A stretch of DNA of 64,000 nt, from positions 18,528,001-18,592,000 of the forward strand of contig CP086569.2 in NCBI GenBank assembly GCA_009914755.4, in the 5' to 3' direction. The notes beneath the pieces were generated by a model. That model did not search any database and was not told where the DNA came from. It saw only the letters and a list, made by a program, of their open reading frames with translations. The translations under genes and the position numbers were made by a program. Numbering within the stretch: the first letter of the stretch is position 1; each line of letters starts with the position of its first letter. The stretch comes from the human T2T-CHM13v2.0 reference genome, Homo sapiens. Positions 19,641 to 53,300 of this stretch are shown here, one piece after another.

Positions 19641-19724
19641 AGAAAGAGAGAAAAGAAAGAAGGAAAGAAGGAAAGAGAAAGAAAGAAAGAAAGAAGAGAG
19701 AAAGAGAGAAAGAAAGAAAGAAAC
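19641..19724. repeat. (GAAA)n/(GA)n polypurine microsatellite. It produces the KKERK... ORF artefacts.
   Basis: gaaaagaaagaaggaaagaaggaaagagaaagaaagaaagaaagaagagagaaagagagaaagaaagaaagaaac. Confidence 0.9.
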
Positions 19725-19730
19725 AAATGC

Positions 19731-21562: not shown

Positions 21563-21716
21563 TTTTTTTTCTTTCTTTTCTTTTCTTTCTCTCTCTTTCT
21601 TTCTTTCCTTCCTTCCTTCCTTCCTTCCTTCCTTCCTTCCTTCCTTCCTTCCTTCCTTCATTTCTTCCTCTCTTTCTTTCTTTCTTTCTTTCTTTCTTCT
21701 CTTTCTTCTTTTTTTG
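21563..21716. repeat. (TTTC)n/(TTCC)n polypyrimidine microsatellite of ~150 bp
   Basis: ttttttttctttcttttcttttctttctctctctttctttctttccttccttccttcc... This is the source of the FLPSFLPSF and KKERKKERK ORF artefacts (21516..21737+, 21435..21764-). Confidence 0.95.
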
Positions 21717-29750: not shown

Positions 29751-30726
<976 letters not shown>

Positions 30727-31767: not shown

Positions 31768-32049
31768 CTTTTTTGAGACGTAGTTTTGCTCTTATTGACT
31801 AGGTTAAAGTGTAATGGTGCGATCTCTGCTCACTGAAACCTTCACCTACAGGAGGTTTAAGCAATTCTCCTGCCTCAGCCTCCCGAATAGCTGGGATTAG
31901 AAATATGCACCACAATGCCCAGAGCAATTTGTATCTTTAGCAGAGACAAGCTTTCTTCATGTTGGTCAGGCTGGTCTCAAATTCCAGACCTCAGGTGAGT
32001 TACCCTCATAAAGTGCTGGGATTACAGGTTTTAGCCACAGTACCTGCCC
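31768..32049 (-). mobile_element. Diverged Alu inside alpha satellite
   Basis: ttttttgagacgtagttttgctcttattgactaggttaaagtgtaatggtgcgatctctgctcactgaaaccttcacc ... gctgggattacaggttttagccacagtacctgccc. Confidence 0.8.
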
Positions 32050-32476
32050 TTGCTTCTAGTTTTTATTGTGAGATATTCAGTTTTTCATAATAGGTCTCAG
32101 TGGGTTTCAATATGTCCCTTCAGAGATTCTACTTAAAGGGTTTTTCCAACCTGTGGAATCAAGAGAGAAGTTTAACTCTGTGATATCAATCCAAATATGA
32201 TATAGGTATTTCACAGATAGCTTGATCTAGTTTTCATAGCAGGATATTCAGTTTTTCACTGTAGGTCTTAATTGGCTCTGAGATGTCCCTTTGCAGATTC
32301 TACAAAAAGAGTGTTTTGAACTGGCTGAATCAAAAGAAAGGCTTAACTGTGTGACATGAATCATACATGTCACACATCATAAAGCGGTTTCACAGATATC
32401 TGCTTGCTAGTCTTTATTGTGGGATATTCAATTTTTCACTGTAGGCTTCAATGGGCTCCAAAATGTCTCTTAGTAG

Positions 32477-32780
<304 letters not shown>

Positions 32781-35700
32781 TGTCCCTTAATAGATTGTAA
32801 AAAAAGGAGGGTTTCCAACCTGCTGAATCAAAGAAAGGCTTAACTCTGTTAGATGAACTCACACAATGCCAAGTGGTTTCCCAGATAAGTTGTTTCTAGT
32901 TTTTATCACGTGATATTCTGTTTTTCACTATATTCCTTGATGGGCCCAGAAATGTCCTTTGTACATTCCACAAGAGGAGTGCTTGCAGAATCAAAATAAA
33001 TTTTTAACTCCATAACGTGAATCCACACATAGCAAAGCAGTTTTAGAGACACCTTGTTTCCAGTTTTTATCATTTAGTTTTTCACTATATGCCTCAATGG
33101 GCTCCAAAATGTCCCATTGTAGATTCTAGAAAGAGAGTGTTTCCAACATGTTGAATCAAAAGTAAGTTTTAACTCTGTGCAATAATAGCATACAACATAA
33201 AACAATTCAACAGAAAGTTTGTTTCATGTTTTTGTCACAGAATATTTGTTTTTTCACTATAGGCCTCACTGGGAATTGAAATGCCCCTTTGCAGATTCTA
33301 CACAATGAGGGTTTCCAACCAGACGAATCAAAAGAAAGCTTTAACTCTGTGAGCTGAATCTACACACCACAAAGTGGTTTCACAGATAGCTTCTTTCTAG
33401 TTTTTATTGTGGGATATTCGGTTTTTCACTGTAGGCCTTATGGGCTCCAATATTTTCTTTCAAAGATTCTGCGAAAAGATTTTTTCCACCCAGCTGAATC
33501 AGAAGAAAGTTCAACTCCATGAGCCAAATACACACACACAAGGCAGTTTCACAAATGACTTCTTTGTAGTTTGTACCACAGGATATTCGGTGTTTCACTA
33601 TAGGCCTCATAAAGCTCTGAAATGTCCGTTCATAAATTCCATACATAGAGTGGTTTCAACCTGCTGAAGCAAAATAAATGTTTATCTCAGTGAAATGAAT
33701 CTGCACATCGCAAAGTGGTTTTACAGTTGGATTCTTTCTAGTTTTTTTCGAAGGATATTCCATTTTTCTCTATAGGCCTCAATGGGATACGAAATGTCCC
33801 TTTGTAGATTCTTCAAAAAGAGGGTTTCCAATATGCTGAATCAAAGGAAAGTTTTAGCTCTTTAAAATGAATTGACACATCAGAAAGCAGAGAGCTTCTT
33901 TCTAGTTTTTATCGTGGGATATCTCAATATAGGCATCAGTGGGCTCTGAAATGTTCCTTAGAAGATTCTAGAAAAAGAGTCTTTTCCACCTGCTGAATCA
34001 AAAGAAAAGTTTAATTTTTTGAAGCCACCCCTTCCAAAGTGGTTTAACAGATAATAACTTTCTAGTTTTCATTGCAGTATATTCGGTTTTTTAATATAGG
34101 CCTTAGTGGGCTGCAAAATGGCTCTCATAGGCTCTGGAAAAAGAATGTTACCAAGCTGCTGAATCAAAAGCAGGATTTCACTCTTGGAGATGAACTCACA
34201 GATTGCAAAGCAGTTTCACAGATAGCTTCTTTCTAGTTTGTATTGTGGGATATTCAGTTTTTCACTAGAGGCCTTACTGCACCTTGAAATATGTCTTGGC
34301 AGATTCTATGAAAAGAGTGTTTACAAACTGCTGATTCAAAAGAAAGGTTTAACTCTCTGAGCTGAAACCACACATTACAAAGCAGTTTCACAGATAGTTA
34401 TTTTTTCTAGTTTTTATAGCATGATATTCAGTTTTTCACTGTAAGTGTCAAGGCCCTCCGAAATGTCCCTTTGGAGACTGTACAAAACAAGTGTTTCAAA
34501 AACTGCTGAACGAAAAGTAAGGTTTAATTCTGTGAGCAGAATACACACGTCACAAAGCATTATCACAGATAGCTTCTTTCTAGGTTTTATGGTGGGATAT
34601 TAGATTTTTTACTATAGGCCTCAGAGAGGTGTGAAATATCCCTTCACAGATTCTACAAAAAAAGGAGTTTCTAACCTGCTGAATCAAAAGATAAGTTTAA
34701 CTTTGTCAGCTGAACCCACATCTCACAAAGCGGATTCACACATAGTATCTTTCCCATTATTATGGCTGGACATTTGAGGTTTTACTATAAGTTTCAGTGG
34801 GCTGAGAAATGTCCCATTGCAGATTCTACAAAAATAGTGTTCCAACCTGCTGAAACAAAAGAAAGGTTTAATTATGTGAGCTGAATCCACAAATCACAAA
34901 ACAATTTCAGATACTTCTTTCTAGTTTTTGTGACTGAATATTGGGTTTTGCACAATAAGCCTCAGTGGGCTTCAAATTTTCCCTTCACAGATTCTACAAA
35001 CCAAATGTTTCAAACATGGTTAATTAAAAAGTAAGTTTAAACTCTGAGCTGAATAGAGAAATAGGAAAGCAGTTTGACAGAGAGCTTCTTTCTCTTTTTT
35101 ATTGCTGGAAATTTTTTTCTCATTGTAAGTCTCACTGTACTCAAAATGTCCCTTCACAGATTCTACAAAAAAGAGAACTTGCAAACTGCTGATTCAAAAG
35201 TAAAGCTTAACTCTGTGAGCTGTTTGCACATATGACAAAGCATTTTCACAGATAGCTTCTTTCTAATTTTTATCTATTAAAATTCCATGTTTCACTATAG
35301 GCCTTACTGTGCCAGGAAATGTCCCTTTGCAGATTCTACAAAAAGAGTGTTTCCAAACTGCTGAATCAGAAGAAACGTTTGAATCTGTGAGATGAATCCA
35401 CACATCACAAAGCAGTTTCACATATAGTTTCTTTCTAGTCTTTAATCAAGAAATATTCGGTTTTTCACTATAGGTCAAAATGATCTCTGAAATGTAGCTT
35501 CATGGATCCTACAAAAGAGTGTTTTCAAACTCCCAAATCAAAAGAAAGTTTTAACCCTGTGAGCTGAATGCCCACATCACAAGGCAGTTTCACAGATGTT
35601 TCTTGCTAGTTTTTATCAAGGGATATTCTGTTTTTCACTGTGGGTCTTAATGACCTTCAAAATGATGCTTTGCCAATTCTACAAAAACAGTCTTTCCAAT

Positions 35701-38700
35701 CTGCTTAATCAAAAGAAAGGTTTCATCCTGCAAGATGAAACCACACATCACAAAGCAGTTCTACAGATACCTTTTTTCCAGTTTTTATTGTGGGATATTC
35801 TGATTTTCACTGTAGACCTCACTGTGTTCCAAAATGTCCCTTTGTAGATTCTTCAGACTGTTTCCAAATAGCTGAATAAAAGTAAGGTTAGCACTGTAAG
35901 CTGAATACACACAGAGCAAAGAAGCTTCACAGATAGCTTCTTTCTAGTTTTTATTACAGGATAATTAGTTTTTCCCTAGAGAACTCAGTTAACTTTGTAC
36001 TGTCTCTTTACAGATTCTACAAAAAGAGTTTCCATCCTATGGAATCAAAAAAAGCTGAATCAAAAGAAAGCTGAATGGACTCATCACAAAGCAGTTTCAC
36101 AGATAGATTTTTGTAGATTTATCATGGGATATGCATTTTTTTCACCATAGGCCTCACTGAACTGCAAAATCTCCCTTTGCTGATTGTACAAAAAGTGTGT
36201 TTCCAAACTTCTTAGTAAAAGAAAAGTTTAAATCTGTGAGCTGAATGTACACACCATAAAGCAGTTTCCCAGATAGCTTTTTTCTAGTTTTTATCACAGG
36301 ATATTAGGTTATTCAATAAAGACCTCAGGGGCTTCTGAAACGTTTCTTCACATATTCTACATAAAGAGTGCTTCAAAACTATTGAATCAAATAAAAAAGC
36401 TTAAGTGTGTGAGGTGAATCCACAAATCACAAAGCAGTTTCACAGATAGCTTCTTTCTAAATTGTATTGTGAGATATTTGACATTTACTATAGGTCTCAG
36501 TGAGGTGTGATATGTCCCTTGGTTGATTCCACAAAAAACTGTTTCTAGCCTACTGAATCAAAGACAGGTTTAACTTTGTCAGCTGAATTCACAACTCAAA
36601 AAGCAAATTCACAGACAGTATCTTTCCCATTTTTATGGCTTGATATTCTGTGTTTCACTATAGGCCTCAGCGGGCTGAGAAAATTCCTTAATAGATTCTA
36701 CAAAAATAGTGTTTACAACATGCCTAATCAAAAGAAAGGTTTCAGTCTCTGAGCTGAATCCACACATCACAAATCAGTTTTCTATATAGCTTCTTTCTAG
36801 TCTTTATCAAAGGATATTCAGTTTTTCACTATAGGCCTCAATGCCTTTTGAAATGTTCTGACACACAATCTACAAAAAGAACGTTTCCAAACTGCTGAAT
36901 CAAAAGTAAGGCTTAACTCTGTAAGCTGAATGCATACATCACAAAACAGTTTCACAAACAGCTTCTTTCTAGTTTTTATTTCAAGATATTCAGTTTTTCA
37001 CTACAGGCCTCAGTGGGCTCAGAAATGTCCCTTCACAGATTCTACAAAAAGAGTGTTTCCAAACTGCTGAATCCAAAGTAAGGTTTAACTCTGTGAAGTG
37101 CATACAGACGTCACAAAACAGGTTCACAGCTAGCTCCTTTCTTGTTTTTATTTCAGGATATTTTGTTTTTCACTTAAGCCCTCAGTGCCCTTTAAATTCT
37201 CCCTTCAGAGATTCTGCAAAAAGGGTGTTTTTAAACTGTTGAATCAAAAGAAAGGATTAACTCTGTAAGCCAAATGCAGACATCACAAAGCAGTTTCACA
37301 GATAGCTTCTTTTGAGTTTTTGTCATGGGATATTTCCAAACTGATGAATCAAAAGAAAGGTTTCATTCTGTGAGCTGAATCCACACATCACATAGCAGTT
37401 TCACAGATACTTTCTTTCTAGTTTTTATCATGAGATATTCGGTTTTTTACTGTAAGCCTCAATCCCCTCCAAAATTTCCATTTGCATATTCTACAAAAAG
37501 AGCCATTCCAATCTGCTGAATCAAAAGTAAGTTTTAACTCTGTGAGCTGAAGGTACACATCAGAAAGCAGTTTCACAGATAGCTTCTTTCTAGTTTTATC
37601 ATGGGATATTCTGTTTTTCACTACAGGTCTCAGTGGACTGAAATGTCCCCTGGCTGATTCCGCAATAAGGGTGTTTCCAAACTGCTTAATCAAAAGAAAG
37701 GTTCAACCCTGAAAGCTGAATCCACACATGAGAAAGCAGTTTCACAGATTTACAGTTTCACAGTTCCACAGTTTCTCATTTTCATTTTAGGATATATATT
37801 TTTTTCATATATTTGGTGCCTCAGTGGGCACCAAAATGTTTCTTTGCAGATACTATAAGAGGAATATTTTGAAACTGTTGAGTCAAACGTTACATTGAAA
37901 AATGCGAACTGAATGTGTATGTCACAAAGCAGTTTCACAGATAGCTTCTTTCTAGATGTTATTTTGGGATATTCAGTTTTTCACTATAGGCCTCAGTGAG
38001 GTCTGCAGTGTCACTTTGCAGATTCTACAAAAAGAGTGTTTCCAAACTGCTGAATCAAAATTAAGGTTGAAATCTTTGACATTAATGTACACATCACAAA
38101 GCAGTTTCACAAATAGCTTCTTCCCAGTTTTTATTTTGTGATCTGTTTTTCACTGTAGGACTTACTGTACCCCAAAATGTCGCTTTGTAGATTCTAGAAA
38201 AAGTGTTTCCAGTCTGCTGAATCAAAAGAAAGGTTTCACTCTGTGAACTGAATGCACACATCACAAAGAAGTTTGGTGGGTAGATTCTTTCTAGGATATT
38301 TTATTTTGTGATATTCAGTTTTTCACTTTTAGGACTCAGTGGGCTCTGAAATGTCCCTTTGCAGATTCTACAAAAAGAGTGTTTCAAAACTACTGAATCA
38401 AAAGTAAGGTTTAACTCTGTGAACTGCATGCACATGTCACAAAACACGTTCACAAATATCTTCTTTCTTGTTTTTATTTCAGGATACTTGGTTTTTCACT
38501 ACAGGGCTCTGTGGTCTCTAAATTGTTTCTTCACAGACTCTATAAAGAAGCTGTTTAAAAACATCTGATTCAAAAGGAAGATTCAACTTTGTGAACTGAA
38601 TGCACACATCAAAAGCAGTTTCACAAATATCTTCTTTCTAGGTTTTATCCAGAGATATTCAGGTTTTCACTATATGCCCCAAAGAGCTCCAAAACCCTTT

Positions 38701-39846
38701 GCAGATTCTACAAAAAGTGTGTTTCCAACCTGCTGAATCAAACAAAAGATTTCACTCTACGAGCTGAATGCATGCATCACAAAGAAGTTTCAAAGATAGC
38801 TTCTTCTAGGTTTTCATTGTGGTATATTCGGTTTTTCACTATAGGCCTCAATGCCCTCCAAATTGTCCCTTTGCAAATACTACAAAAAAGAGTGTTTCCA
38901 ACTTGCTGAATCAAAGGACAGGATTACCTCTGTGATCTGAATTCGCACGTCACAAGGTAGTTTCATGGATAGGTTTTTCTGTAGTTTTTGTCGTGGGATA
39001 TTCAGTTTTTCACTATATGCCTCAGTGCATTCCCAAATGTCCCTTTGCAGATTCTACACAATGAGGGTTTCCAAACTGCTGAATTAAAAGAAAGGTTTAA
39101 CTCTATGAGCTGAATCCACACATCACAAAGCAGTTTCACAGAAAGCTTCTTTCTAGTTTTTATCAGAAGATTTTTGGTTTTTCACTATAGGCCTCAATAC
39201 CCTCATAAATGTGCCTTCTCAGATTCTACAAAAAGAGTGCTTCCAAACTTCTGAATTAAAAAAAGAGAAAGGTTTCACTCTACGAGTTTAATGCACAAAT
39301 CACAAAACAGTTTCATTGACAGCTTCTTTCTAGTTTTTATCATGGGATATAGTGTTTTTCAGTACAGGCCTTCTGGGCCTTGAAATATCCTTTCACAGAT
39401 CCTACAAAAAGTGTGTTTTCAAATTGTTGAATCAAATGTAATGCTGTACACCACGAACTGAAAGCACACAACACAAAGGAGTTTCGCAGATAGTATCTTT
39501 CAAATTTTTATTTTGGGATATTCCATTTCTCACTATTTGCCTCAGTGGGCTCCTAAGTGTCGCTTCACAGATTCTACCAAAAGAGTGTTTCCAAACTGCT
39601 GAATCAGAAGTAAGGTTTAATTATCTGAGCAGAATTTATACATCACAAAGCAGTTTCACAAGTAGCTTCTTACTAGTTATTTTGGGATATTCTGTTTTTC
39701 ACTGTAGGCCTTACTATGCCTCAAAATGTCATTTTATAGGTACTGTAAAAAGAGGGTTTCCAATCTGCTGAATCAAAATAAAGGTTTCACTCTGTGAGCT
39801 GAACGCACACATCACAAAGGAGCTTCACAGATAGATTCTTTCTAGA

Positions 39847-40134
39847 TTTTTTTTATGAGATGGAGTCTCACTCTGTCAACCAGGCTGGGGTGCAGAGGCT
39901 GGATCTTGGCACACTGCAACTTCTGCCACCCTGGTTCAAGTGATTCTCCAGCCTCAACGTACCAAGTAGCTGAGATTTAGGCTCCTGTCACTGTGCCCAG
40001 CTAATTTTTGTTTTTATACTAGTGACGGGGTTTCACCATCTTGGCCAGGCTTGTCTTGTACTCCTGACCTCGTGATCCACCCACACAGCATCCCACAATG
40101 CTAGGACTAGGGGCATAAGCCACGATGCGCAGTC
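39847..40134 (-). mobile_element. Alu inside alpha satellite
   Basis: ttttttttatgagatggagtctcactctgtcaaccaggctggggtgcagaggctggatcttggcacactgcaac ... gctaggactaggggcataagccacgatgcgcagtc. Confidence 0.9.
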
Positions 40135-41971
40135 AATTATTTTTCTAGTTTTAATAGTGGCATATTCATTTTTTCAGTATAGACCTCAATGCCCTTTGAA
40201 ATATCCCTTCACCGATTCTAGACAAAGAGTGTTCCCAAACTTTTGAATCAAAAGTTAAATTTAACTCTGTGAGCTGGATGCACACATCACAAAGCAATTT
40301 CACAAGTAACTTCTTACTAGTTTTTATTTTGAGATATTCTGTTTTTCACTGTAGGCCTTACTGCACCCCAAAATATCACTTTGTAGATTCTACAAAAAGG
40401 ATGTTTCCAATCTGCTGAATCAAAACAAAGGCTTAATTCTGTGAGCTGAATGCACACATCACAAAGCAGTTTCACAGATAGCTTGTTACTAGTTTTTATC
40501 CCGGGCTTTTCGGTTTTTCACTGTGGATCTCAATATACTCCAAAGTGTCTCTTGGTAGAGTTTAAAAATCAGTGTTTCCAAACTGCTGAATGAAAACAAT
40601 GGTTTAGCTCTGTGAGCTGAATGCACACATCACAAATCAGATTCAGAGATAACTTCTTTATAGTTTTTATTGTGAGATAATTGGTTTTTCACTATAGGCT
40701 TTACTGCACTCTGAAATGTCTCCTGCAGATTCTACAAAAAGAGTGTTTCCAAACTGCTGAATGAAAAAAAAAGGTTTAAATCTGTAAACTGAATCCATAC
40801 CTCACAAAGCAGTTTTACAGAGAGTTTCTTTCAATTGTTTATCAAGGAATATTTGATGCTTCACTATAGACTTCAATGCCCTCCCAAATGTCCCTTTGCT
40901 GAATCTACAAAAGGAGTGTTTCCAAACTGCTGAATCAATGGTAAGGTTTAACCCTGTGAGCTGAATGCACATATCAGAAAGAAGTTCTATGACAACTTCT
41001 CTCTACTTTTTGTTTAGGGATATTCGTTTTTTTGCTATAGGCCTTAATGCACTTTGAAATGTACCTTTGCAGATTCTACAAAAGAGTGTTTCCAAACAGC
41101 TGAATCAATGGGAAGGTTTAACTCTGAGCTGAATGCATACATCACAAAGCAGTTTTACAGATAACTTCTTTCCAGTTTTTGTCTGGGCATATTTGGTGTT
41201 TCATTATAGGCCTTGCTGTTCTCTGAATTGCCCCTCACAGATTCTACAAAAAGAGTGTTTCCAACCTGCAGAATCAAAAGATAGGTTTAACTCTGTGAGT
41301 TGAATGCACATATCACAAAACAATTACACAGATTTCTTCTTCGTAGTTTTTATCACAGAATATTCAGCTTTTCACTATAGGACTTACTGTGCACTGAAAT
41401 GTCCCTTCACTGATTCTACAAAAAGAGTGTTTCAAAACTGCTGAGTCAAAAAAACAGTTTAATTTTGTGAGCTGAATCGACACTTCATAATTCAGTTTCA
41501 CAGATAGCTACTTTCTAGATTTTATCACAAGATAGTCAAAATTTTTCCTATTTGCATGGTGGGCTCTGAAATGTCTGTTCTAGATTCTATAAAAGAGTGT
41601 TTCCCTACTGTGGAATAAAAAGAAAGGTTTAACTCTGTGAGCTGAATGCAGACACCACAAAGCAGTTTCACAGATAGCTTCTTTCTGGACTTTGTCACAA
41701 GATATTTTGTTTTTCACTATAGGGCATAGCAGGCTCTGAAATATCCCTTCATACAATCCACAAAAAGAGTAATTCCAAACTGCTGAATCAAAAGAAAGGT
41801 TTAACTCTGTGAGCTAAATCCACACAATACAAATAAGTTACACTGACAGCTATTTTCTGTTGTTTTTATTGTGGGATATTCTGTTACCACCATACGTCTT
41901 AACTGTGCTCTAAAGTATCTCTTTGCATAATCTACAAAAAGAGTTTTTCCATCTGCTGAATCAATAGAAAG

Positions 41972-41973
<2 letters not shown>

Positions 41974-42004
<31 letters not shown>

Positions 42005-42119
42005 AGATGGATTATTGCTCTGTCACCCAGGCTGGAGTGCAGTGGTGCAATCTCGGCTCACCACAAGCTCTGCTTCACAGGTTCATGCCATTCTCCTCCC
42101 CCAGTCTCCCAAGTAGCTG
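41974..42119 (-). mobile_element. Truncated Alu, right arm plus a 32-nt poly-T only. It sits exactly at the switch between satellite monomer families A and B.
   Basis: A T32 run, then gagatggattattgctctgtcacccaggctggagtgcagtggtgcaatctcggctcaccacaagctctgcttcacaggttcatgccattctcctcccccagtctcccaagtagctg, after which a type-B satellite monomer follows directly. Confidence 0.85.
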
Positions 42120-42861
42120 TTTTTCCCCTTAGGCCTCAGTGGCTCTCAAATGTCCCAGAGTGTTTCCAACCTGCTGAATCAGAAAAAGGTTTAACTCTGT
42201 GAGATGAATCCATACATCACATAGCAGTTTCAAGGATAGCTTCTCTCTAGTTTTTGTCTCAGGATATTCAGTTTTTCCCCATGAGCCACAGTGGGCTTCC
42301 AAATGCCCTTTTGCAATTTCTTCAAAAAGAGTTGTCTCCAACCTGCTGAAACAAAAGAAAGTTTTACCTCTGTGAGATAAATTTACACATCACAAAGCAG
42401 TTTCACAGAGAGATCCTTTCCAGTTTTTACCCCGGGATATTTGACTTTTCCCGATAGGCCTGAATGGAATCCCAAATGCCCCTTAGCAGATTCCTCAAAC
42501 CGAGTGTTTTCAAACTGCCGAATCAAAATAAATTTTTAACCCTGTGAGATTAATTAAAACATCACACAGCAGTTTCACAGAAAGCTACTTTCTAGTTTTT
42601 CTGGGGATATTCTGATTTTCCCCTTAGGCCTCAATGGACTGCCTAATGTCCATTTGCAGATTCTCCACAAAGAGCATTTCCAACCTGCTGAATCCACATA
42701 AAGTTTTAACTTTGTGAGTTGAATACACACATCACAAAGTAGTTACACAGGCAGCTTCTTTCTTGTTTTTATCTGGGGATATTGAGTTTTTCCCAAAAGG
42801 CCTCAGTGGACTTACAAAAGTTCCTTTGCAGATTCTCCAAGGAGATTGTTTCCAACTTGCT
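42120..42861 (-). repeat. Alpha satellite of monomer family B, in the same reverse orientation
   Basis: ..ttttccccatgagccacagtgggcttccaaatgcccttttgcaatttcttcaaaaagagttgtctccaacctgctgaaacaaaagaaagttttacctctgtgagataaatttacacatcacaaagcagtttcacag.. It differs from domain A in three respects: ttcccc vs ttcact, ctccaaa vs ctacaaa, and gagatgaatcca vs gagctgaatgca. Confidence 0.9.
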
Positions 42862-45800
42862 GAACCATGAGCATGAAATGTTCCTCCATTTGTTTGTGTC
42901 CTCTTTCATTTCTTTGAGCAGTGCTTTGTTGTTCTCCTTGAAGAGGTCCTTCATGTCCCCTGGAAGTTGGATTCCTAGGTATTTTATCCTCCTTGAAGCA
43001 ATTGTGAATGGGGGTTCACTCATGTTTTGCCTCTCTGTTTGTCTGTTATTGGTGTATAGGAATGCTTGTGATTTTTGCCCTTTGATTTTGTATCCTGAGA
43101 CTTTGCTGAAGTTGCTTATCTGCTTAAGGAGATTTTGGGTTGGGACAGTGGAGATTTCTAAGTATAAAATCATGTGATCTGCAAAGAGGGACAATTTGAC
43201 TTCCTCATTTCCTAATTGAATACCCTTTATTTCTTTCCCCTGCCTGATTGTTCTAGCCAGAACTTCCAACACTATATTGAATAGGAGTGGTAAGAGGGTA
43301 TCCCTGCCTTGGGCCAGTTTTCAAAGTGAATGCTTCCAGTTTTTGCCCACTCAATAGGATATTAGCTGTGGGTTTGTCATAAATAGCTCTTATTATTTTG
43401 AGATATGTCCCATCAATACCTAGTTTATTGAGAATTTTTAGCATGAAGGGCTGTTGAAATTTGTGAAAAGTCTATTCTGCATATATTGAGACAATAATGT
43501 GGTTTTTGTCTTTGGTTCTCTTTATATGATGGATTACGTTTATTGATTCCCATATGATGAACAGCCTTGCCTCCCAGGGATGAAGCCAACTGGATTGTGC
43601 AGGATAAGCTTTTTGATGTGCCGCTGGATTCGGTTTGGCAGTATTTTATTGAGGATTATTGCTTCAATATTCATCAGGGATATTGGTCTAAAATTCTCTT
43701 TTTTTGTTATGTCTCTGCCAGGCTTTGGTATCAGGATGATGCTGGCTTCATAAAATGAGTTAGGGAGGATTCCCTCTTTTCGTATTGATTGGAATAGTTT
43801 CAGAAAGAATGGTATCAGCTCCTCTTTGTACCTTTGGTAGAATTCAGCTGTGAATCCGTCTGGTCCTGCACTTTTTTTGTTAGTAGGCTACTAATTATCG
43901 TCTCCATTTCAGAGCCTCTTATTGGTCTATTCAGGGATTCAACGTCTCCCTGGTTTAGTCTTGGGAAGGTTTATTGCCTATATTCGATTCTTCTCTTTTC
44001 TTCTGTATTAGTCTTGCTAGTGGTCTATCAATTTTGTTGATCTTTCCAAAAAAACCAGCTCCTGGATTCATTTATTTTTGAAGGGGTTTTTTTTAACGTC
44101 TCTATCTCCTTCAGTTGTGTTCTGATCTTAGTTATTTCTCAACTTCTGCTAGCTTTTGAATGTGTTTGTTCTTGATTCTCTAGTTCTTTTAATTGTGATG
44201 TTAGGCTGTCAATTTTAGGTCTTTCCTGCTTTCTCTTGTGGGATTTGGTGCTATAAATTTCCCTCTGCACACTGCTTTAAATGTGTCCCAGAGGTTCTAG
44301 TATGTTTAGTCTTTGTTCTGTTTGGTTTCAAAGAACATCTTTATCTCTGCCTTCATTTCATTATTTACCCAGCAGTCATTCAGGAGCAGGTTGTTCAATA
44401 TCCATGTAGTTGTGTGGTTTTGAGTGTGTTTCTTAATCCTGAGTTCTAATTTGATTGCATTTTCATCAGAGAGAGAGATTGTTATAATATCTGTTCTTTT
44501 ACATTTGCTTAGGAGTGCTTTACTTCCAACTATGTGGTCAATTTTGGAATAAGTGTGATGTGGTGCTGAGAAGAATGTATATTGTTTTGATTTGGGGTGG
44601 AGAGTTCTGTAGATGTCTACTAGGTCCACTTGGTCCACAGCTGAGTTGAAGTCCTGGTTATCCTTGTTAAGTTTCTGTCTTGTTGCTCTGTCTATTTTTG
44701 ACAGTGGGGTGTTACTGTCTCCCGTTATTATTGTGTGGGATTCTAAGTCTCTTTGTAGTCTCTAAGAACTTGCCTTATGAATCTGGTTGCTTCTGTATTG
44801 GATGCATATGTATTTAGGATAGTTAGCTCTTCTTGATGAATTGATCACTTTACCATTATGTAATGGCCTTCTTTGTCTCTTTTGATCTTTGTTGGTTTAA
44901 AGTCTGTTTTATCAGAGACTAGGATTGAAAACCCTGCTTTTTGTTTGTTTGTTTTCCATTTGCTTGGTAGGTCTTCCTCCGTCCGGTTATTTTGAGCCAA
45001 TGTGTGTCTCTGCATATGAGATGGATCTCCTGAATACAACACACTGATGGGTCTTGACACTATTCAATTTGCCAGTCTGTCTTTTAATTGGGGCATTTAG
45101 CCCATTTATATTGATGGTTAATATTGTTATGTCTGAATTTGATACTGTCATTAGTATGTTAGCTGGTTATTTTTGCTCGTTAGTTGATGCAGTCTCTTCC
45201 TAGTATTGATGGTCTACAGTTTAGCATGTTTTTGCAGTGGCTGTTACTGTTTGTTCCTTTTCATTATTAGTGCTTCCTTCAGGAGCTCTTGTAGGGCAGG
45301 CCTGGTGGTGACAAAATCTCTTAGCATTTGCTTGTCTGTAAAGGATTTTATTTCTCCTTCACTTATGAAGCTTAGTTTGGCTGGATATGAAATTCTGGAT
45401 TGAAAATTCTTTCCTTTAAGAATGTTGAATATAGGCCCCCATTCTCTTTGGCTTGTAGAGTTTCTGCCAAGAGATCAGCTGTTGGTCTGATGGACTTCCC
45501 TTTGTGGGAAACCCAACTTTTCTCTCTGGCTTCCCTTAACATTTTTTCCTTCATTTCAGCCTTGGTGAATCTGACAATTATGTGTCTTGTGTTTGCTCTT
45601 CTTGAGGAATATCTTTACAGCATTCTCCCTATTTCCTGAATTTGAATGTTGGTCTGCCTTGCTAGATTGGGGAAGTTGTCCCAGAAAATATCCTGCCTAG
45701 TGTTTTCAAACTTGGTTCCATTCTCCCTGTCACTTTCAGGTACACTAATCAGATGTAGATTTGGTCTTTTTTCATAGTCCCGTATTTCTTGGAGGCTTTA

Positions 45801-47270
45801 TTTGTTTCTTTTTACTCTTTATTTTCTAAACTTCTGTTCTTGCATTGTTTCATTAATTTTATCTTCTATCACTGATATGCTTTCTTCCATTTGATTGAAT
45901 CAGCTTTTGAAGCTTGTGCACGAATCACATAGTTCTCGTGCCATGGTTTTCAGCTCCATCAGGTCATTTAAGGTCTTCTCTATGCTGTTTATTCTAGTTA
46001 GCCAATCGTCTAATCTTTATTCTAAGTTTTAACTTCATTGCAATGTGTTCAAACATCCTTCTTTAGCTCGGAAAATTTGTTATTACCAATCTTCTGAAGC
46101 CTACTTCTGTCAACTCATCAAAGTCATTCTCCCTCCAGCTTTGTTCTGTTGCTGAGGAGGAGCTTGTTTTCCTTTGGAGGAGAAAAGACACTGATTTTTA
46201 GAATTTTCAGCTTCTTTGCTCTGGTTTCTGCCCATCTTTGTGGTTTTATCTACCTTTGGTTTTTGATGATGGTGAACTTCAGATGGGGCTTTGGCATGGA
46301 TGTTCTTTTTGTTGATGTTGATGCTATTCCTTTCTGTTTGTTAGTTTTCCTTCTAAAAGCCAGGGCCCTCAGCTTCAGCTCTGTTGGCCTTTGCTGGAAG
46401 TCTACTCCAGGTCCTCTTTGTCTGGGTATCACCAGTGGTGGCTGTAGAAGAGCAAATACTGCACAAAAAGAAATGTTGCTGCCTGATCTTTCCTCTGGAA
46501 GCTTCGTCTTAGAGGGGCACCCAGCTGTATGAGGTGTCAGTCAGCCCCTACTGGGAGTTGTCTCTCAGTTAGGCTACTTGGGGGTCAGGGAATGACTTGA
46601 GGAGGTAGTCTGTCCATTCTCAGATCCCAAACTTCATGCTGGAAGAACCACTACTCTCTTCAAGGCTGTCACACAGGGACTTATGTCTGCAGAAGTTTCT
46701 GCTGCCTTTTGTTCAGCTATATCCTGCCCCCAGTGGTGGAGTCCACAGTAGCAGGCAGGCCTCATTGAGCTGTGATGGGCCCCACCCAGTTTGAAGTTCC
46801 CAGCTGCTTTGTTTACCTACTGAAGCCTCAGCAATGGTGTATACCACTCCCTCAGCCTTGCAGTTGCCTTGCAGCTTGATCTTGGACTGCTGTGTTAGCA
46901 GTGAGCAAAGCTCTGTGGGTGTCAGACCCTCTGAGCCAGGAATGGAATGTAATTTCCTGTTGTGCCATTTGCTAAGACTGTTGGAAAAGTGCAGTATTAG
47001 GATGGGAGTGTCCTGATTTTTCAGTACCATCTGTCATGTCTTCCCTTGGCTAGGAAAGGGAATTTTGCGACCCCCTGTGCTTCCCAGGTGAGGCAATGTC
47101 CCACCCTTCTTCAGCTCACACTCCATGGGCTGCACCCACTGTCCAAAAGGCCCCAGAGAGATGAACCCAGTACCTCAGATGGAAATGTAGATATTACCTG
47201 TCTTCTGTGTCACTCTGGGAACTGTAGACTGGACCTGTTCCTATTCGGCCATCTTGGATCACTCCCTCAC
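42862..47270 (-). mobile_element. L1 (L1PA-type, fairly close to L1HS) with a complete 5' UTR start but truncated inside ORF2, after the reverse-transcriptase FADDM region at roughly aa 780. It consists of 5'UTR, ORF1 and about two thirds of ORF2. All reading frames are broken.
   Basis: ORF 42769..43272(-) reads [97 protein letters not shown], which is the L1 ORF2 reverse-transcriptase domain. ORF 44306..44638(-) carries ..[40 protein letters not shown]..; ORF 44845..45060(-) carries the endonuclease domain; ORF 45372..45554(-) carries the ORF1 C-terminus. Positions 47200-47270 are the reverse complement of the L1 5' start ggaggagccaagatggccgaataggaacag. Confidence 0.92.
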
Positions 47271-48368
47271 TTCTTTCTAGTTTTTAAATGGAGATGTTTC
47301 GTTTCTCCCCATATGCCTCAAAGGGCTCCCAAATGTTTTATTGCACATTCTCCTAAAAGAGGGTTTTCAACCTGCTGAATCAACAGAAAGCTTTAACTCT
47401 GTGGAATGAATCCACAAGTCACAAAACAGTTTCACAAATAGCTTCTTTCTAGTTTTTATCTCTTGAAATTATGTTTTTCTGCATAAAACTCAAAGGTCTC
47501 CCAAATATGCCTTCACAGATTCTCCAAAAACAGTGTTCCCAACCTGCTGAATAAAAAGGAAATTTTAATTCTGTGACATGAATCCAAATATCAGAAAGCA
47601 GTTTCACAGATAGCTTCTTTATAATTTTCACCTGGGGATATTCAGTTTCTCCCCAAGGACTCAATGGGCTCAAAAAGTCCCTTTGGAGATTCATTAAAAA
47701 GAGTGTTTACAACTTACTGAATCAAAAGGAAGGTTTAACTCTTTGAGATCAATCCAAATATTACAAAGCAGTTTCACAGATAGCTTCTTTCTAGTTTCTA
47801 TCTGAGGATACTTTGTTTTTCACTTATGCTTCAGTGAGCTCCAATATGTGCCTTTGCAGATTCCACAAAAAGAGTGTTTACAACCTGCTGAATGAAAAGA
47901 AAGGTTTAACTCTGTTAGATGAATCTACACATCAGAAAGTAGTTTTACAGAGAGATTCTAGTTTTTTTCTGAAGATATTTGTTTTTTTTCCCAGAGGCTT
48001 CAATGGCCTTCCAAATGTCTTTTTGCAGATTTTCCAAAAACAGTGTTTCTAACTTCTGAATCAAAAGGCAGCTTTAACCCTGTGAGATAAACCCCGATAT
48101 CACAAGGCAGTTTCACAGATAGCTACTTTCTAGTTTTTTTCTGGAGATATTCAGTTTTTCCTCATAGGCCTCAGTGCACTCTCAAATGTTTCATTGCAGA
48201 TTCTCCAAAAAGAGTGTTTCAAACCTGCTGAATCAAAAGAAAGTTTTATCTCTGTGAGGTGAATCCACACATCATAAAACAGTTCCACGGATAGCTTCTT
48301 TCTAGTTTTTACCTATGAATATAATGTTTTTCCCCATAGGTTTCAGCAGACTCCAAAATTTTCCTTCA
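47271..48368 (-). repeat. Alpha satellite family B, a segment between the L1 and the HERV fragment
   Basis: ..tttctagtttttaaatggagatgtttcgtttctccccatatgcctcaaagggctcccaaatgttttattgcacattctcctaaaagagggttttcaacctgctgaatcaacagaaagctttaactctgtggaatgaatccacaagtcacaaaacagtttcacaaatagcttc.. Confidence 0.9.
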
Positions 48369-50336
48369 CGGATCACTTTCTTGACTTGATAATCCAAAGT
48401 GGCCTTTTGAGCTGTGTCTTGCAAAAGGGTGACAAAATCTGGATAAAGCTCTCTTGGAGCCTGTTGAACTGAGTTAGAAGAAGGGTAAGTAGTACCAGGG
48501 TCATGAACTTTTTCGAGGCTCTTAGGCATATATTTCTGAGATGATCAACAGCTTCAACACCCATTACCATTGGTTGATTTCCAGTACCTCATGCCTGTCC
48601 AATTCCAAGCAATTGATCAGATGTGATATTAATGGGAGGTTAGGCTTGAGCATTTCTGCATGCCTGATTTGTTGCTTCATCCATCCACCAGGTTTTAAAT
48701 TACAGAAATTGAGAGAGGGACAGGGTTGATCAGGCTAATGACTTCTAATCCATATTAAATGTTGGTTATAAGCCACAGATTGTAATAAGGAATGAACATA
48801 GGAGAATTTGGTCCATATTGTCCAATTGATTGCTTTAAGTCTTTTAATATTTTAAGAGGAAACAGCTCCCAGTGTGCTTGAGCATGTTCTCTGGCCTCCT
48901 CCCTGAATCATAATTTGTATTTGGGTTGGCTTGGAGCATTCCTTTACCATAATTAACTGGTGGACAAGCCGCGATCATTCTCTCACTGTAATTGGCTGTT
49001 GGGCAAGCCTGAAGCTTCCCTTCACCATAGTTAATGGTGGGACATGCAACATTTAGAGTAGTAAGCCACATCTCAGGCTCCCTTTCCAAAAATTCATAAG
49101 GCTGAGGCAGGGGTGGCCATTCCAGGCCTTCCCTTAAAGGCACAGTAGGTGGTACTGTTTCTGCAGTAGTTGGAACTGTTCCTTTCTTAATTTTTTGGAG
49201 GTTAGCATATATAGCTTCCCATTTCTCCCCCTTTTTAAACCTAGACTGTGATGGTTCACTTTGCTGATCATCAGACTTCTGATTATTAAACTTTTCTACG
49301 TCATCCTGAAACTCCTACTCCTTCCTCCTCAGTGAGGAAGCACTTCAGTGCTGTTTTAGTTGCCAACCACACAGACCAAGTGGAGAAAGGAATGTTGTGG
49401 CTCTCTTGCTGTGCTGGTTTTAAGTCTGAACCAACCTTATACCAATCTTTTATATTCCTGGTGCCATATTCTGGGAACCAAGGAGAATACTCTTCTATGA
49501 GATGGAACAAAGATGTGAGATTTCAGGTACTCACAATTGTCCCACTGTGACACAATAACTGTGGCACCAGGCTTAAGTAATTAGTAAACTTACTTTCAGC
49601 CTGATCCATATTTTCCTGAGGTTACCATGGAATTCTCCATAGATCCTGAAGTAAAAACGTACGTGGGTGTCCTTTGTCAGTCACGCTCCACTTTCCATGC
49701 TCTGGCATTTCTTCACTGGATTATTTGTAGATATTACAGGGATACCTGCGTTGGGTGCCAGATATTGGGGAAACCAGCCCCGCACTACCCAGTGGGTACA
49801 CTGACTCTGGTGGAGAAAAAAGAGTTAGACAGAATAAGTGTTTAAAATGTGGGTCTAGGGGACTGGAGCATTGAAGGTTTGCTCACAGCCCAGAGCTCTC
49901 AGGCTCCACACAATCTATTGATATACAGGCTGTTCTTACAGCAGATGAGAGGGGGAGCAAGGAATGAAGAAAAGGATTAATCAGTGAAGGAGATCTTGTG
50001 AGTCATTTGATAAGACTACAGCAGTGGTGATTTCTATGTATTTCCTTGTGGAGAGGAGTGTGTCTAAACTACTTAAGATCTTTAACTTATTGGGACTGAA
50101 ACAGGTGGGAGCAGGTTTTAGGAGAAGCCCAGATGTTTGACTATACTCCACTGCTTCAAGGGAGTATTATCTCCCTGAGAAAACTGTGGAATGCTGCTGA
50201 GTGGTTATGCTCTAGAGGCATAAAAACCTGAAGGTAATAAGGAGACGTTTTTCCTCAGAGGCCACCCATGGCTTTCCATGGGTGTCTCACACAGGGAAGA
50301 CCAACACAACTGGCACCCCAGAAACTCTCTTTCCCA
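48369..50336 (-). mobile_element. HERV-K-like (HML-family betaretroviral) provirus fragment. The 5' LTR runs ~49763-50336, the Lys-type PBS ~49745-49762, the leader follows, and gag runs from the ATG at ~49609 down to 48369. It is truncated within the gag capsid region at the satellite junction, and gag carries stops.
   Basis: The minus-strand translation reads MDQAESKFTNYLSLVPQLLCHSGTIVST*..SLFHLIEEYSPWFPEYGTRNIKDWYKVGSDLKPAQQESHNIPFSTWSVWLATKTALKCFLTEEEGVGVS, against HERV-K gag MGQTKSKIKSKYASYLSFIKILLKRGGVKVSTKNLIKLFQIIEQFCPWFPEQGTLDLKDWKRIGKELKQAG..IIPLTVWNDWAIIKAALEPFQTEEDSVSVS. The proline/tyrosine repeat PTINYGEGKLQA/PTANYSERMIAA/PPVNYGKGMLQA corresponds to HERV-K QPPVAYQYWPPAELQY.. The motif ..LRNICLRA..DPGTTYPSSNSVQQAPRELYPDFVTLLQDTAQK corresponds to VRAICLRAWEKIQDPGSTCPSFNTVRQGSKEPYPDFVARLQDVAQK. 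The reverse complement of 49745-49762 is tggcacccaacgcagg, close to the tRNA-Lys PBS tggcgcccaacgtgggg. The LTR starts tgtggg (reverse complement of cccaca at 50331-50336). Confidence 0.85.
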
Positions 50337-53300
50337 CATTTCCAACCAGATAAATCAAAAGAAAGTTTTAACTTTGTGAGACAAATCCACACATCAGAAA
50401 GCAATTTCACAGACAGTTTCTTTCTAATTTTTTGCTGGGGATGTTGGGTTTTTCCACATAGGCCTGAATGGACTCCCAAATGTCCCTATGCAGATTCTCC
50501 AAAAAGAGTGTTTTTAATCTGCTGAATCCAAAGAAAGGTTTAACTCTGTGAGATAAATCCACACATGAACAAAAGCAGTTTCACAGATAGCTTCTTTCTA
50601 GTTTTTACCTGAGGATATTTGTTTTTTTCTCAGTAGACCTTAATGGGCTGCCAAAAATCCCTTCATAGATTCTCCAAAAACAGTGTTTTTAACCTGCTGA
50701 ATCGAAAGAAAGATTTGACTCTATGAGATGAATCCACACATCACAAAGCTGTTGCACAGATTCTTTCTAGTTTTTCCTGTGGAAATTCAGTTTCTTCTCA
50801 TGGGCCTCAATGGGCTCCCAAAAATCCCTTTGCAGATTCTCCAAAAAGAGGGTTTCCAACTTGCTAAATCTAAAGAAACGTTTAATTCAGTAAGATGAAT
50901 CCACACATCATAAAGAAGTTTCATAGAAAGTTTTTTCTAGTTTTTACCTGGGGATATTGGGTTTTTCCCTGTATGCCTCAATGGGCTCCAAATGTCCCTT
51001 TGCAAATTTTCCAAAAAGATTTTTTCCAACCTGTTGAATCAAAGAAAACGCCTAACTCTGTGAGAAGAATCGACAAACCACAAAGTAGTTTTACAGATAG
51101 CTTCTTTCTGGTTTTTACCTGACAATATTTGGTTTTTCACATTGGCCTCAATGGGCTTCCAAACGTCCCTTTGCAGATCCTCCATAAAGAGTGTTTCAAC
51201 CTGCTGAGTCAAAAAACAGGTTTATCTCTATGAGATGAATCCACACATGGCAAAGCAGTTTCACAGATACCTTCTTTCTAGTTTTTTACCTAGGGATTTT
51301 TGGATTTTCCCCATAGGCTTCAATGGGCTCACAAATATCCCTTAGCAGAATCTCTAAAAAAGAGTGTTTCCAAACTGCTGAATCAAAGGAAACTTTTAAC
51401 CCTGTGAGATGAATCTACACATCACAAATGAGTTTCACAGACAGCTTTTTTCTTGTTTTTACCTGGGAATATTCAGTTTTTCCACATGGGCCTCAATGGG
51501 CTCCTAAATATCCCTTTGCATATACTCCAACAAGACATTTTCTTTTCTTTTTTTTTTTTTTTTGGAGGTGGAGTCTTGCTCTGTCACCCAGGCTGGAGTG
51601 CAGTGGTGCAATTTCCCACTCACTGCAAGCTCCACCTCCTGGTTACATGCCATTCTCCTGCCTCAGACTCCCAAGTAGCTGGGACTACAGGCACCCACCA
51701 CTATTTCTGGCTAAAATTTTTGTATTTTTATTAGAGATGGGGTGTCACCATGTTATCCAGGACTGTGTCGATCTCCTGACCTTGTGATCCACCTGCCTCA
51801 GCCTCCCAAAGTCCTGGGATTAGAGGCATGAGCCACCCCACCTGGCTGAGATTTTCTAACTTGCTGAATCAAAAGAAAGGTTTAATTCTGAGATGAATCC
51901 ACAAATCACAAAGCAGTTTCACACATAGCTTCTTTCAAGTTTTTACCTGAGAACATTCTGACTTTCCCCATGATCTTTAATGGGATCTAAAATGTCGCTT
52001 CACAGATTCTCCAAAAAAAAAAAAAAAAAAAAAAAAAAGTGTTTTCAACCTGTCCAATCAAAAGAAAGGATTAACTCTGTTTGCTGAATCTGCAAATCAC
52101 AAAGCAGTTTCACAGACAGCTTCTTTCTAGTTTTTATCATTGGATATTCCATTTTTCCCCATTGGCCTCAATGGACTTCCAAATGTCCCTTCACAGATAC
52201 TCCAAAAAGAGTGTTTCCAACCTGCTGAATCCAAAGAAAGTTTTAACTCTGTGAGATGAATCCACATATCACAAGGTTGTTTGACAGACAGCTTGTTTTG
52301 TTTCTACCTGGGTACATTCTGTTTTTCCACATGGGCCCCTAGGGCTCCTAAGTGTCCCTTTGTGGATTCCCCAAAAAGAGTGTTTCCATCCTGCTGAATC
52401 AAAAGAAAGTTTTAACTCTGTTAGATGAATCCACACATCACAAAGCAGTTTCATAGATACCTTCCTTCGAGTTTTTGCCTGGGGATATTTTGTTTTTCTC
52501 CATGGGCCTGAATGAGCTCCCAAATATCCCTTCGTAGATTCTCCAAAAAACATGTTTCCAACCTGCTGAATCAAAAGAAAGATTTAACTCTGTGAGATGA
52601 TCCACACCTCATGAAGCCGTTTCTCATACATCTTATTTCCAATTTTTATCTGTGATATTCAGTTTTTCCTCTAGGCTTCAATGGGGTTCCAAATGTCCCT
52701 AAACAGATTTCCCAAAAAGAGTGTTTCCAACCTGCTGAATAGAAAGGACGTTTTACCTCTGTTAAATGAATCCACACATCACAAAGTAGTTTTACAGATA
52801 TTCTTCCTAGTATTTACCTAGGGATATTCAGTTTTTCCCCATAAGATTCAATGGGCTCCCGAATGTTCCATTGTAGATTCTCCAGAAAGAGTGTCTTTTA
52901 CCTGCTGACTCAAAAGAAATGTTTATCTCTGTGAGATGAATCCACACATCACAAAGCAGGTTCTTTGATAGCTTTTTTCTATTTTTTACCTGGGGATATT
53001 GTGTTTTTCCCCATAATCTTCAATGGGTTCCCAAAGTCTCTTCTCAGATTCTCAAAAAGAGTGTTTCCAAATTGCTGAATTGAAAGAAACGTTTAACACT
53101 GAGAAATGAAGCACACATCACAAAGCAGTCATACTGATAGCTTCTTTCTAGTTGTTACCTGGGTATATTTTGTTTTTCCCCATGGGTCTCACTGTGCTTC
53201 CAAATTTTCTTTTACACATTCTCCAAAAAAAACTGCTTCCAACCTGCTGAATCAGAAGAAACGTCTAACTCTGCAAGATGACTCCACACATCACAAAGCA

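What the first reader, a model, noticed from the sequence alone, without database searches (positions are those of the whole stretch)
41900..42200. Two alpha-satellite monomer families switch exactly at a truncated Alu
Up to 41973 every monomer carries the family-A diagnostic positions (gattctacaaaaag, ccaaactgctgaatc, gtgagctgaatgcacacatc, tttttcactatagg). From 42120 onward every monomer carries the family-B states (gattctccaaaaag, ccaacctgctgaatc, gtgagatgaatccacacatc, tttttccccatagg). The 146 bp between them is an Alu right arm plus a 32-nt poly-T with no left arm. Two satellite domains have therefore been juxtaposed at or within an Alu. This could be an Alu-mediated rearrangement or deletion breakpoint, or a layer boundary of the pericentromeric satellite.
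Basis: seen in the sequence. Interest (0 to 1): 0.6.

Follow-up and report, generated by a model that had tools for sequence, protein, structure and literature searches.

The report
Satellite family border at a broken Alu
Two old, decayed alpha-satellite families of a primate pericentromere do switch exactly at a half-missing Alu, but this is an ordinary deletion or rearrangement scar at a border between dead centromere layers, not a new kind of element.

Summary
I cut the satellite (30735-63066) into 150 monomers, all on the + strand. Unsupervised methods place the one strong family change between the monomers starting at 41745 and 42157. k-means with k=2 splits them 60 left / 82 right with no error. 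The change-point pseudo-F is 15.98, against at most 3.35 in 200 permutations.

The 146 bp in between are a T30 tail (41974-42003) and 116 nt of a minus-strand Alu (42004-42119). The Alu matches AluY-lineage consensus positions 166-282, so its first ~165 nt are missing.

The tail side looks like a normal L1-driven insertion into a left-family monomer at a CTTT/A site. The other side joins Alu position 166 directly to column 137/138 of a right-family monomer. There is no target-site duplication, the monomer phase jumps from column ~58 to 137, and microhomology is 1 nt. Four other Alus in the same satellite are near-full-length (consensus starts at positions 2-15), have 10-15 nt duplications and keep the phase.

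Both families are monomeric, about 172 bp, free of CENP-B boxes and about 25% diverged, like the known 'ancient' layers.

The most likely history is a non-homologous deletion after insertion that removed the Alu 5' part and the original border. An insertion-coupled deletion or a larger rearrangement cannot be excluded. Low novelty and low interest.

The parts
30735..34290 (+). Outer satellite zone ('F'): monomeric alpha satellite of a third type (16A, 35C, 70A, 76C, 144A, 146T), partly intermixed with L-like monomers from about 32950. Carries two near-full-length (consensus from positions 12 and 15) minus-strand Alus.
   Evidence: (secondary change-point 34125/34295, pseudo-F 3.96 vs permutation maximum 2.32)
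34295..41973 (+). The last, partial monomer (41921-41973) covers model columns 3-56.
41974..42003 (-). T30 run, the poly(A) tail of the minus-strand Alu. The first 2-3 T may be satellite columns 56-58. The site reads GAAAGTCTTT/(A), an L1-endonuclease-like CTTT/A site where the satellite consensus has GGTTT/AAC.
   Evidence: site hallmarks as described in PMC4229983
42004..42119 (-). Alu body, 116 nt, consensus positions 166-282 only (AluY/Sc-lineage states AATGGCRTGAACC and GGAGCTTG). The left arm, the linker and about 30 nt of the right arm are missing. 18 of 115 mismatches to AluY, 9 of them at CpG sites.
42119..42120 (.). Non-canonical junction: Alu position 166 joined to satellite column 137/138. 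1 nt (G) of microhomology, no target-site duplication, phase gap of 79 + n x ~172 nt.
42120..42867 (+). The first monomer has an 18-nt internal deletion (columns 4-21) at 42156/42157. The block ends at column ~45 against an internally cut L1.
42868..47269 (-). L1 with a natural 5' end at 47269 but cut inside ORF2 at 42868. This is a second non-canonical junction. The satellite phase goes from ~45 to 106 across it, but the family stays R.
   Evidence: (RVT_1, Transposase_22)
47270..63066 (+). Rest of the R-family monomeric array. It is interrupted by an ERV gag fragment (48357-50338, minus strand) and a full-length Alu (51558-51846). There is no significant internal family change.
39850..40123 (-). 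Control: a near-full-length Alu (consensus from position 12) in the L family with a target-site duplication and preserved monomer phase (satellite ends at column 125 and resumes at 108). The Alus at 31769-32038, 32496-32771 and 51558-51846 behave the same way.

Best explanation
The window holds the outer, dead layers of a catarrhine pericentromere. At least three families of diverged, monomeric, CENP-B-box-free alpha satellite lie one after another on one strand. The L/R border at 41973-42120 is a deletion scar.

Step 1 (shown by anatomy): an AluY/Sc-lineage element inserted by ordinary L1-driven target-primed reverse transcription into an L-family monomer, at the CTTT/A site at columns 56-59, with its tail to the left.

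Step 2 (inferred): a later non-homologous deletion (end joining, 1 nt of microhomology) removed four things. These were the Alu's first ~165 nt, its right-hand target-site duplication, the rest of the L array and the original L-to-R transition. The loss in satellite is at least 79 nt, or 79 + n x 172. Alu position 166 was thereby fused to column 137/138 of an R-family monomer.

On this reading the Alu is a bystander that happens to mark the breakpoint. The two families existed and had stopped homogenising long before. The element has no function. It records how dead centromere layers shrink.
For: - The switch is real and sits exactly at the Alu.
- The Alu is truncated at consensus position 166 and has an intact T30 tail.
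- There is no target-site duplication, against 10-15 nt duplications for the four other Alus in the satellite.
- The phase jumps from column ~58 to 137, while the controls keep phase.
- All 150 monomers share one strand, so the arrangement fits a simple co-linear deletion.
- Breakpoints inside transposable elements that retrotransposition cannot produce are common in this window. They are an L1 cut in ORF2 at 42868, an ERV cut in gag at 48357, an ERV pol fragment starting at 63067 and an L1 ORF1 cut at 30733.
- Both families are old: pairwise distance 0.25-0.26, 172 bp, no higher-order period, no CENP-B box. This matches the published 'ancient' monomeric layers (identity 0.71-0.73, 172 bp, type A; PMC2729386).
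- Published work describes the flanks of centromeres as shrinking and accumulating transposable elements (10.1101/2021.07.12.452052).
- The Alu's non-CpG divergence (~9.5%) is similar to that of the near-full-length Alus in both domains (7.6-14.5%). The satellite was therefore already inert when these Alus arrived.
Against: - Nothing in the sequence separates a deletion after insertion from one made during insertion. Both leave a 5'-truncated Alu, an endonuclease-type tail junction and no duplication.
- The size of the loss is unknown, so a larger rearrangement cannot be ruled out.
- No orthologous or allelic sequence could be obtained.
- Assignment of L and R to named suprachromosomal families was not possible.
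Confidence: 0.5

Rival explanations
1. Insertion-coupled deletion (Alu retrotransposition-mediated deletion). First-strand nicking and priming took place at the CTTT/A site in the L monomer. The incomplete cDNA (reaching Alu position 166) was then ligated to a distant downstream break in R satellite. The intervening DNA was lost in the same event, so no target-site duplication was ever made.
For: - 5' truncation, an intact long tail, an endonuclease-type site, no duplication and 1 nt of microhomology.
- The same hallmarks are reported for 5'-truncated SVA elements at deletion breakpoints: CTTT/A sites, long poly-T and loss of target DNA (PMC4229983).
Against: - From my own knowledge, such events are a very small fraction of Alu insertions.
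- The same window has at least three or four element/satellite junctions that must be post-insertional. Ordinary deletion is therefore the locally common process.
- No feature specific to the coupled mechanism is present.
Confidence: 0.22
2. Juxtaposition by a larger rearrangement. The R block, or the whole R array, was brought next to the L array with one breakpoint in the Alu. Possible routes are duplicative transposition, interchromosomal exchange, or a replication-based event with templated insertion. On this reading L and R were never neighbouring layers.
For: - The first R block (42120-42867) is bounded on both sides by internally cut elements, the Alu at 42119 and the L1 at 42868. This fits a patchwork.
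- The satellite array also begins at an internally cut L1.
- The three family consensuses are equidistant (12-13 differences), not a graded series.
Against: - The strand is the same for all monomers.
- The R family is homogeneous across the other junctions, with no significant split.
- There are no high-identity duplicated segments in the window.
- A co-linear deletion needs fewer events.
Confidence: 0.2
3. Assembly artefact: a false join of two satellite contigs at an Alu.
For: Satellite-rich regions are prone to misassembly. No read-level data are available here.
Against: - A false join through a repeat would run through homologous Alu sequence and give a complete Alu. It would not give a truncated Alu abutting satellite with a phase break.
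- The monomers are ~25% diverged, so the region is effectively unique sequence.
Confidence: 0.03
4. One of four canonical repeat structures: Alu-Alu homologous recombination, an ordinary TSD-flanked insertion inside one monomer, a free right Alu monomer, or a chimeric retrocopy (L1 5' part, satellite, Alu 3' part and poly-A, 41974-47269) made by template switching or read-through.
For: The composite 41974-47269 has a natural L1 5' end at one extreme and a tail at an endonuclease-type site at the other.
Against: - There is no chimeric full-length Alu and no partner Alu.
- There is no duplication flanking either the Alu or the composite. The left flank ...AAAGTCTTT and the right flank TTCTTTCTAG... 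share only 5 nt, the phase runs from 58 to 106, and the right flank is R type.
- The fragment starts 30 nt inside the right arm and carries AluY/Sc-lineage states, so it is not a fossil right monomer.
Confidence: 0.02

Closest known systems
Layers of dead monomeric alpha satellite flanking primate centromeres (Schueler et al.; Shepelev et al. 2009, PMC2729386; Altemose et al., 10.1101/2021.07.12.452052)
   Same: - Compact domains of distinct monomer types that do not mix.
- Abrupt borders.
- 172-bp, pure A-type, monomeric arrangement.
- About 25% intra-array divergence.
- Riddled with L1, Alu and ERV insertions.
   Different: - Named family (H3, H4, V1 or SF7+) could not be assigned.
- The published descriptions I read do not discuss borders made by a breakpoint inside an Alu ('Alu' occurs 0 times in PMC2729386 and its supplements).
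- Here the border is demonstrably a secondary junction, not the original edge of an expansion.
Retrotransposon insertion-associated deletions (Alu/L1/SVA; e.g. SVA cases in PMC4229983; Alu cases, Callinan et al. 2005, from memory)
   Same: A 5'-truncated element, a long poly-T/A tail at a CTTT/A-type site, no target-site duplication, and loss of target DNA on the 5' side of the element.
   Different: The pre-insertion allele is unknown, so the coupling of insertion and deletion is unproven. An ordinary later deletion explains the same anatomy.
Alu recombination-mediated deletion (Alu-Alu non-allelic homologous recombination)
   Same: An Alu sits at a deletion breakpoint.
   Different: That mechanism leaves one complete chimeric Alu. 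Here the Alu is cut at position 166 and joined to non-homologous satellite.

Membership tests
Distinct alpha-satellite layers (criteria of Shepelev et al. 2009) | Monomers of the two domains form separate groups | tested here: met
   k-means k=2 gives a perfect 60/82 split. PCoA axis 1 changes sign at the Alu. Leave-one-out classification is right for 148 of 150. L and R consensuses differ at 12 of 168 columns.
Distinct alpha-satellite layers (criteria of Shepelev et al. 2009) | Compact residence: each type occupies its own array without interspersion | tested here: met
   No R-type monomer lies left of the Alu within 6 kb, and no L-type monomer lies to its right. The change-point falls at the Alu. 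The F/L transition further left is fuzzier.
Distinct alpha-satellite layers (criteria of Shepelev et al. 2009) | Structural test and mixing test: consensus matches a named monomer type and mixes with that layer on other chromosomes | not testable with these tools
   No reference consensus or HMM was available. A text search for the motifs found nothing. Only indirect fit could be shown: 172 bp, type A, monomeric, identity about 0.75 against published 0.71-0.73 for H4/H3.
Old/ancient pure A-type alpha satellite | No CENP-B box; no higher-order repeat | tested here: met
   0 matches to YTTCGTTGGAARCGGGA with up to 3 mismatches. Distance does not drop at any lag from 1 to 8 monomers. No self-match of 150 bp or more exceeds about 81% identity.
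Dimeric Alu element | Left arm, A-rich linker, right arm and poly(A) | tested here: not met
   Only consensus positions 166-282 plus the tail are present. It is a fragment of a dimeric Alu of the Y/Sc lineage, not a complete element.
Canonical L1-mediated (TPRT) insertion | Poly(A) tail at a TTTT/A-like nick site | tested here: met
   T30 follows GAAAGTCTTT, where the satellite consensus has GGTTT/AAC.
Canonical L1-mediated (TPRT) insertion | Flanking target-site duplication and uninterrupted target sequence | tested here: not met
   The best flank match is 8 nt and is only the T run. The four control Alus have 10-15 nt duplications. The phase jumps from column 58 to 137.
Retrotransposition-mediated deletion | Element lacks a target-site duplication and replaces DNA that is present in the pre-insertion allele | not testable with these tools
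   The absence of a duplication is shown. The pre-insertion allele could not be obtained.
Alu-Alu recombination-mediated deletion | Single chimeric full-length Alu at the junction | tested here: not met
   The Alu is truncated and abuts satellite.

The most novel reading that the evidence does not exclude
The junction was made in one step by an Alu insertion-coupled deletion that excised the border region between two ancient centromere layers. That would make L1-driven retrotransposition a direct agent of the shrinkage of dead centromere arrays, not only a passive marker of their age.
Probability: 0.2. Interest if true: 0.3.

Novelty: already known. Interest (0 to 1): 0.15.

Why it matters
It matters little beyond annotation.

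- The locus is a clean, well-controlled example of how the abrupt borders between dead alpha-satellite layers can be secondary deletion or rearrangement scars. They need not be the original edges of satellite expansions. Anyone using layer order, size or border sharpness to reconstruct centromere history should keep this in mind.
- The truncated-Alu/satellite junction is a unique sequence tag inside otherwise repetitive DNA. It could serve as a mapping or phylogenetic marker: its presence or absence in apes and Old World monkeys would date the event.

Tried and rejected
External comparison (all empty):
- Exact look-ups of junction-spanning ORFs in public assemblies found nothing.
- Exact junction 22- and 32-mers were absent from metagenome contigs and from prokaryote genome contigs.
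- No comparison with other haplotypes or species was therefore possible.

Naming the families:
- A full-text search for the diagnostic motifs found no paper.

Other checks:
- An Rfam scan of 41800-42300 gave only a sub-threshold mir-3135 hit inside the Alu (22 bits against a gathering score of 80). I treat this as Alu-derived noise.
- Average-linkage clustering on raw distances only peeled off outlier monomers and was uninformative. PCoA, k-means and profile methods were used instead.
- There is no dimeric or higher-order periodicity and there are no high-identity duplications.

Explanations considered and rejected:
- Free right Alu monomer.
- Endonuclease-independent capture. A tail and a CTTT/A site are present.
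- Chimeric retrocopy or L1 read-through spanning 41974-47269. There is no duplication, and the phase and family differ at 47270.
- An inversion linking the two ERV fragments. The satellite between them is not inverted.

Full report
**Context.** The window is primate pericentromeric DNA.
- Bases 1-30700 are Alu-rich non-satellite sequence.
- From 30735 to 63066, Tandem Repeats Finder reports arrays with a 169-172 bp period and only 65-77% matches.
- An nhmmer model built from the window itself cuts this stretch into 150 monomers or fragments, all on the + strand. This orientation is the reverse complement of the usual alpha-satellite orientation.
- Distance does not fall at any lag from 1 to 8 monomers.
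- No self-match of 150 bp or more exceeds about 81% identity.
- There is no CENP-B box within 3 mismatches.
- The satellite is therefore diverged, monomeric and purely A-type.

**Checking the observation.** I aligned all monomers to the 168-column model and compared the two sides of the Alu.

| Column | State | Left of Alu | Right of Alu |
|---|---|---|---|
| 16 | A | 87% | 9% |
| 35 | A | 56% | 9% |
| 70 | C | 75% | 1% |
| 76 | G | 46% | 7% |
| 144 | A | 90% | 10% |
| 146 | T | 94% | 12% |

Columns 123, 125/126, 157 and 166 also differ.

Methods that do not use position find the same border:
- The first principal coordinate is negative for every monomer up to 41745 and positive for every monomer from 42157.
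- k-means with two clusters separates 60 left from 82 right monomers without error.
- A PERMANOVA change-point scan peaks between the monomers starting at 41745 and 42157. Pseudo-F is 15.98, and the largest value in 200 permutations is 3.35.
- Leave-one-out profile classification is right for 148 of 150. Both errors lie more than 6 kb left of the Alu.
- In a nearest-neighbour 'mixing' test, no right-side monomer votes for the wrong side, and only 1 of the 43 monomers in 34295-41973 does.

1. Exact copies of the quoted motifs are a minority, because monomers are about 25% diverged.
2. The left side is not uniform. 30735-34290 is a third type with B-like states at columns 35, 70 and 76.
   - It has a weaker and fuzzier transition to the L type between about 32950 and 34290, inside uninterrupted satellite.
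   - The three consensus sequences differ from each other at 12-13 of 168 columns.
3. The T run is 30 nt.
4. The Alu piece begins at consensus position 166. It therefore lacks the left arm, the linker and about 30 nt of the right arm.

**Anatomy of the junction.**

*Tail side (left).*
- The last L monomer ends at column ~54-56 (...AATAGAAAGTC). The T30 run follows it.
- The satellite consensus here is GGTTT/AAC, and the actual site reads CTTT/(A). With the long tail, this is the expected footprint of L1-endonuclease nicking and target-primed reverse transcription. The same hallmarks are described in PMC4229983.
- The Alu body (42004-42119, minus strand) aligns without gaps to AluY positions 166-280.
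- An alignment with six near-full-length Alus from this window shows the same truncation independently of my memory.

*5' side (right).*
- Alu position 166 (...AGTAGCTG) is followed directly by TTTTTCCCCTTAGG, which is column 138 of an R-type monomer. One G could belong to either side.
- There is no target-site duplication. The best flank match is 8 nt and is only the T run.
- The phase jump means that 79 + n x ~172 nt of satellite are missing.

*Controls.* The four other Alus in the satellite (31769-32038, 32496-32771, 39850-40123, 51558-51846) are all minus-strand and near-full-length, with consensus starts at positions 2 to 15. They have decayed 10-15 nt duplications and preserved monomer phase. 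The focal Alu is the exception, and it is the only one at a family switch.

**Surroundings.** Internally cut elements abutting satellite are common in this window:
- An L1 on the minus strand has a natural 5' end at 47269. It is cut in ORF2 at 42868, and the satellite phase goes from ~45 to 106 across it.
- An ERVK-like fragment on the minus strand has a natural LTR end at 50338 but is cut in gag at 48357.
- An ERV pol-like sequence starts abruptly at 63067, at satellite column 97.
- The satellite array begins at 30734 against an L1 cut in ORF1.

Retrotransposition cannot produce a 3'-truncated L1 or an internally cut provirus. Post-insertional deletion or rearrangement has therefore acted repeatedly here. 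Across these other junctions the satellite family stays R, with no significant change-point. Only the Alu junction coincides with a family change.

**Interpretation.**
- By period (mode 172 bp), pure A type, monomeric arrangement and mean pairwise identity of about 0.74-0.79, L and R resemble the 'ancient' monomeric layers of Shepelev et al. Those layers are H3/H4: 172 bp, type A, identity 0.73/0.71, and abrupt borders (PMC2729386).
- The T2T centromere study reports 17-26% intra-array divergence in monomeric layers. [quoted passage not shown]
- The Alus in both domains have 7.6-14.5% non-CpG divergence. Both arrays had therefore stopped homogenising before those insertions.
- The most economical history has two steps. 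First, a normal Alu insertion into an L monomer. Second, a later non-homologous deletion with one end in the Alu and the other in R satellite. The deletion removed the Alu 5' part, the right-hand duplication and the original L/R transition.
- I give this history about 0.5.
- The same anatomy would result if the deletion was made during insertion (about 0.22). It would also result if a larger rearrangement brought R next to L (about 0.2).
- These options can be separated only by orthologous or allelic sequence, and none could be retrieved.
- Alu-Alu homologous recombination, a simple insertion, a free right monomer, endonuclease-independent capture and a chimeric retrocopy spanning 41974-47269 are each contradicted by a tested feature.
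- An assembly misjoin is unlikely, because it would pass through homologous Alu sequence and leave a complete Alu.

**Comparison with what is known, and verdict.** This is an instance of two well-described things. One is an abrupt border between dead alpha-satellite layers. The other is a truncated retroelement at a non-homologous breakpoint. I found no earlier description of this particular junction, but nothing about it departs from known kinds. Interest is low.

Noticed in passing
window 42860-42875 (junction 42867/42868) and 42868-47269: A minus-strand L1 has a natural 5' UTR end at 47269 but is cut inside ORF2 (after ...NISCSW) and joined to R-satellite column ~45. A 3'-truncated L1 cannot arise by retrotransposition, so this is a second deletion or rearrangement scar, 750 bp from the Alu junction.
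   Followed up: partly
window 48357-50338: An ERVK-like fragment on the minus strand with Gag_p10 and Gag_p24_C Pfam hits. It has a natural LTR terminus at 50338 (reverse complement starts TGTGGGAAAG) but is cut in gag at 48357 against satellite column ~168.
   Followed up: partly
window 63067-64000: The satellite stops at column 97. A plus-strand ERV pol/RNase H-like sequence then starts mid-gene. I identified it by eye only and did not test it against Pfam. Its relation to the gag fragment at 48357-50338 is unclear. A simple inversion is excluded, because the satellite between them is not inverted.
   Followed up: no
window 30060-30734: The satellite array begins directly against an internally cut plus-strand L1 ORF1 (...KGKPIRL), at satellite column ~121. 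The outer edge of the array is therefore also a non-canonical junction.
   Followed up: no
window 32950-34295: There is a second, weaker family transition (F to L; columns 8, 35, 70, 92, 109) inside uninterrupted satellite. L-like and F-like monomers are interleaved over about 1.3 kb. This contrasts with the knife-edge switch at the Alu.
   Followed up: partly
window 31769-32038, 32496-32771, 39850-40123, 41974-42119, 51558-51846, 42868-47269, 48357-50338: All five Alus, the L1 and the gag-bearing ERV inside the satellite are on the minus strand. For the Alus, this fits the T-runs followed by A on the + strand of the monomer. Two of them share the same site, CTAGTTTTT/A at columns ~117-121. 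I ran no statistics on this.
   Followed up: no
window 52013-52038: An A26 run inside an R monomer expands the monomer's own CAAAAAG run. It shows that homopolymer slippage occurs here, so the T30 Alu tail may not have its original length.
   Followed up: yes
window 42156/42157: The first R monomer after the Alu has an 18-nt internal deletion (columns 4-21).
   Followed up: yes
window 25996-26346, 21564-21715, 19641-19727: Long simple repeats lie in the non-satellite part: (CT)n of about 350 bp, (TTTC)n and (AGAA)n.
   Followed up: no
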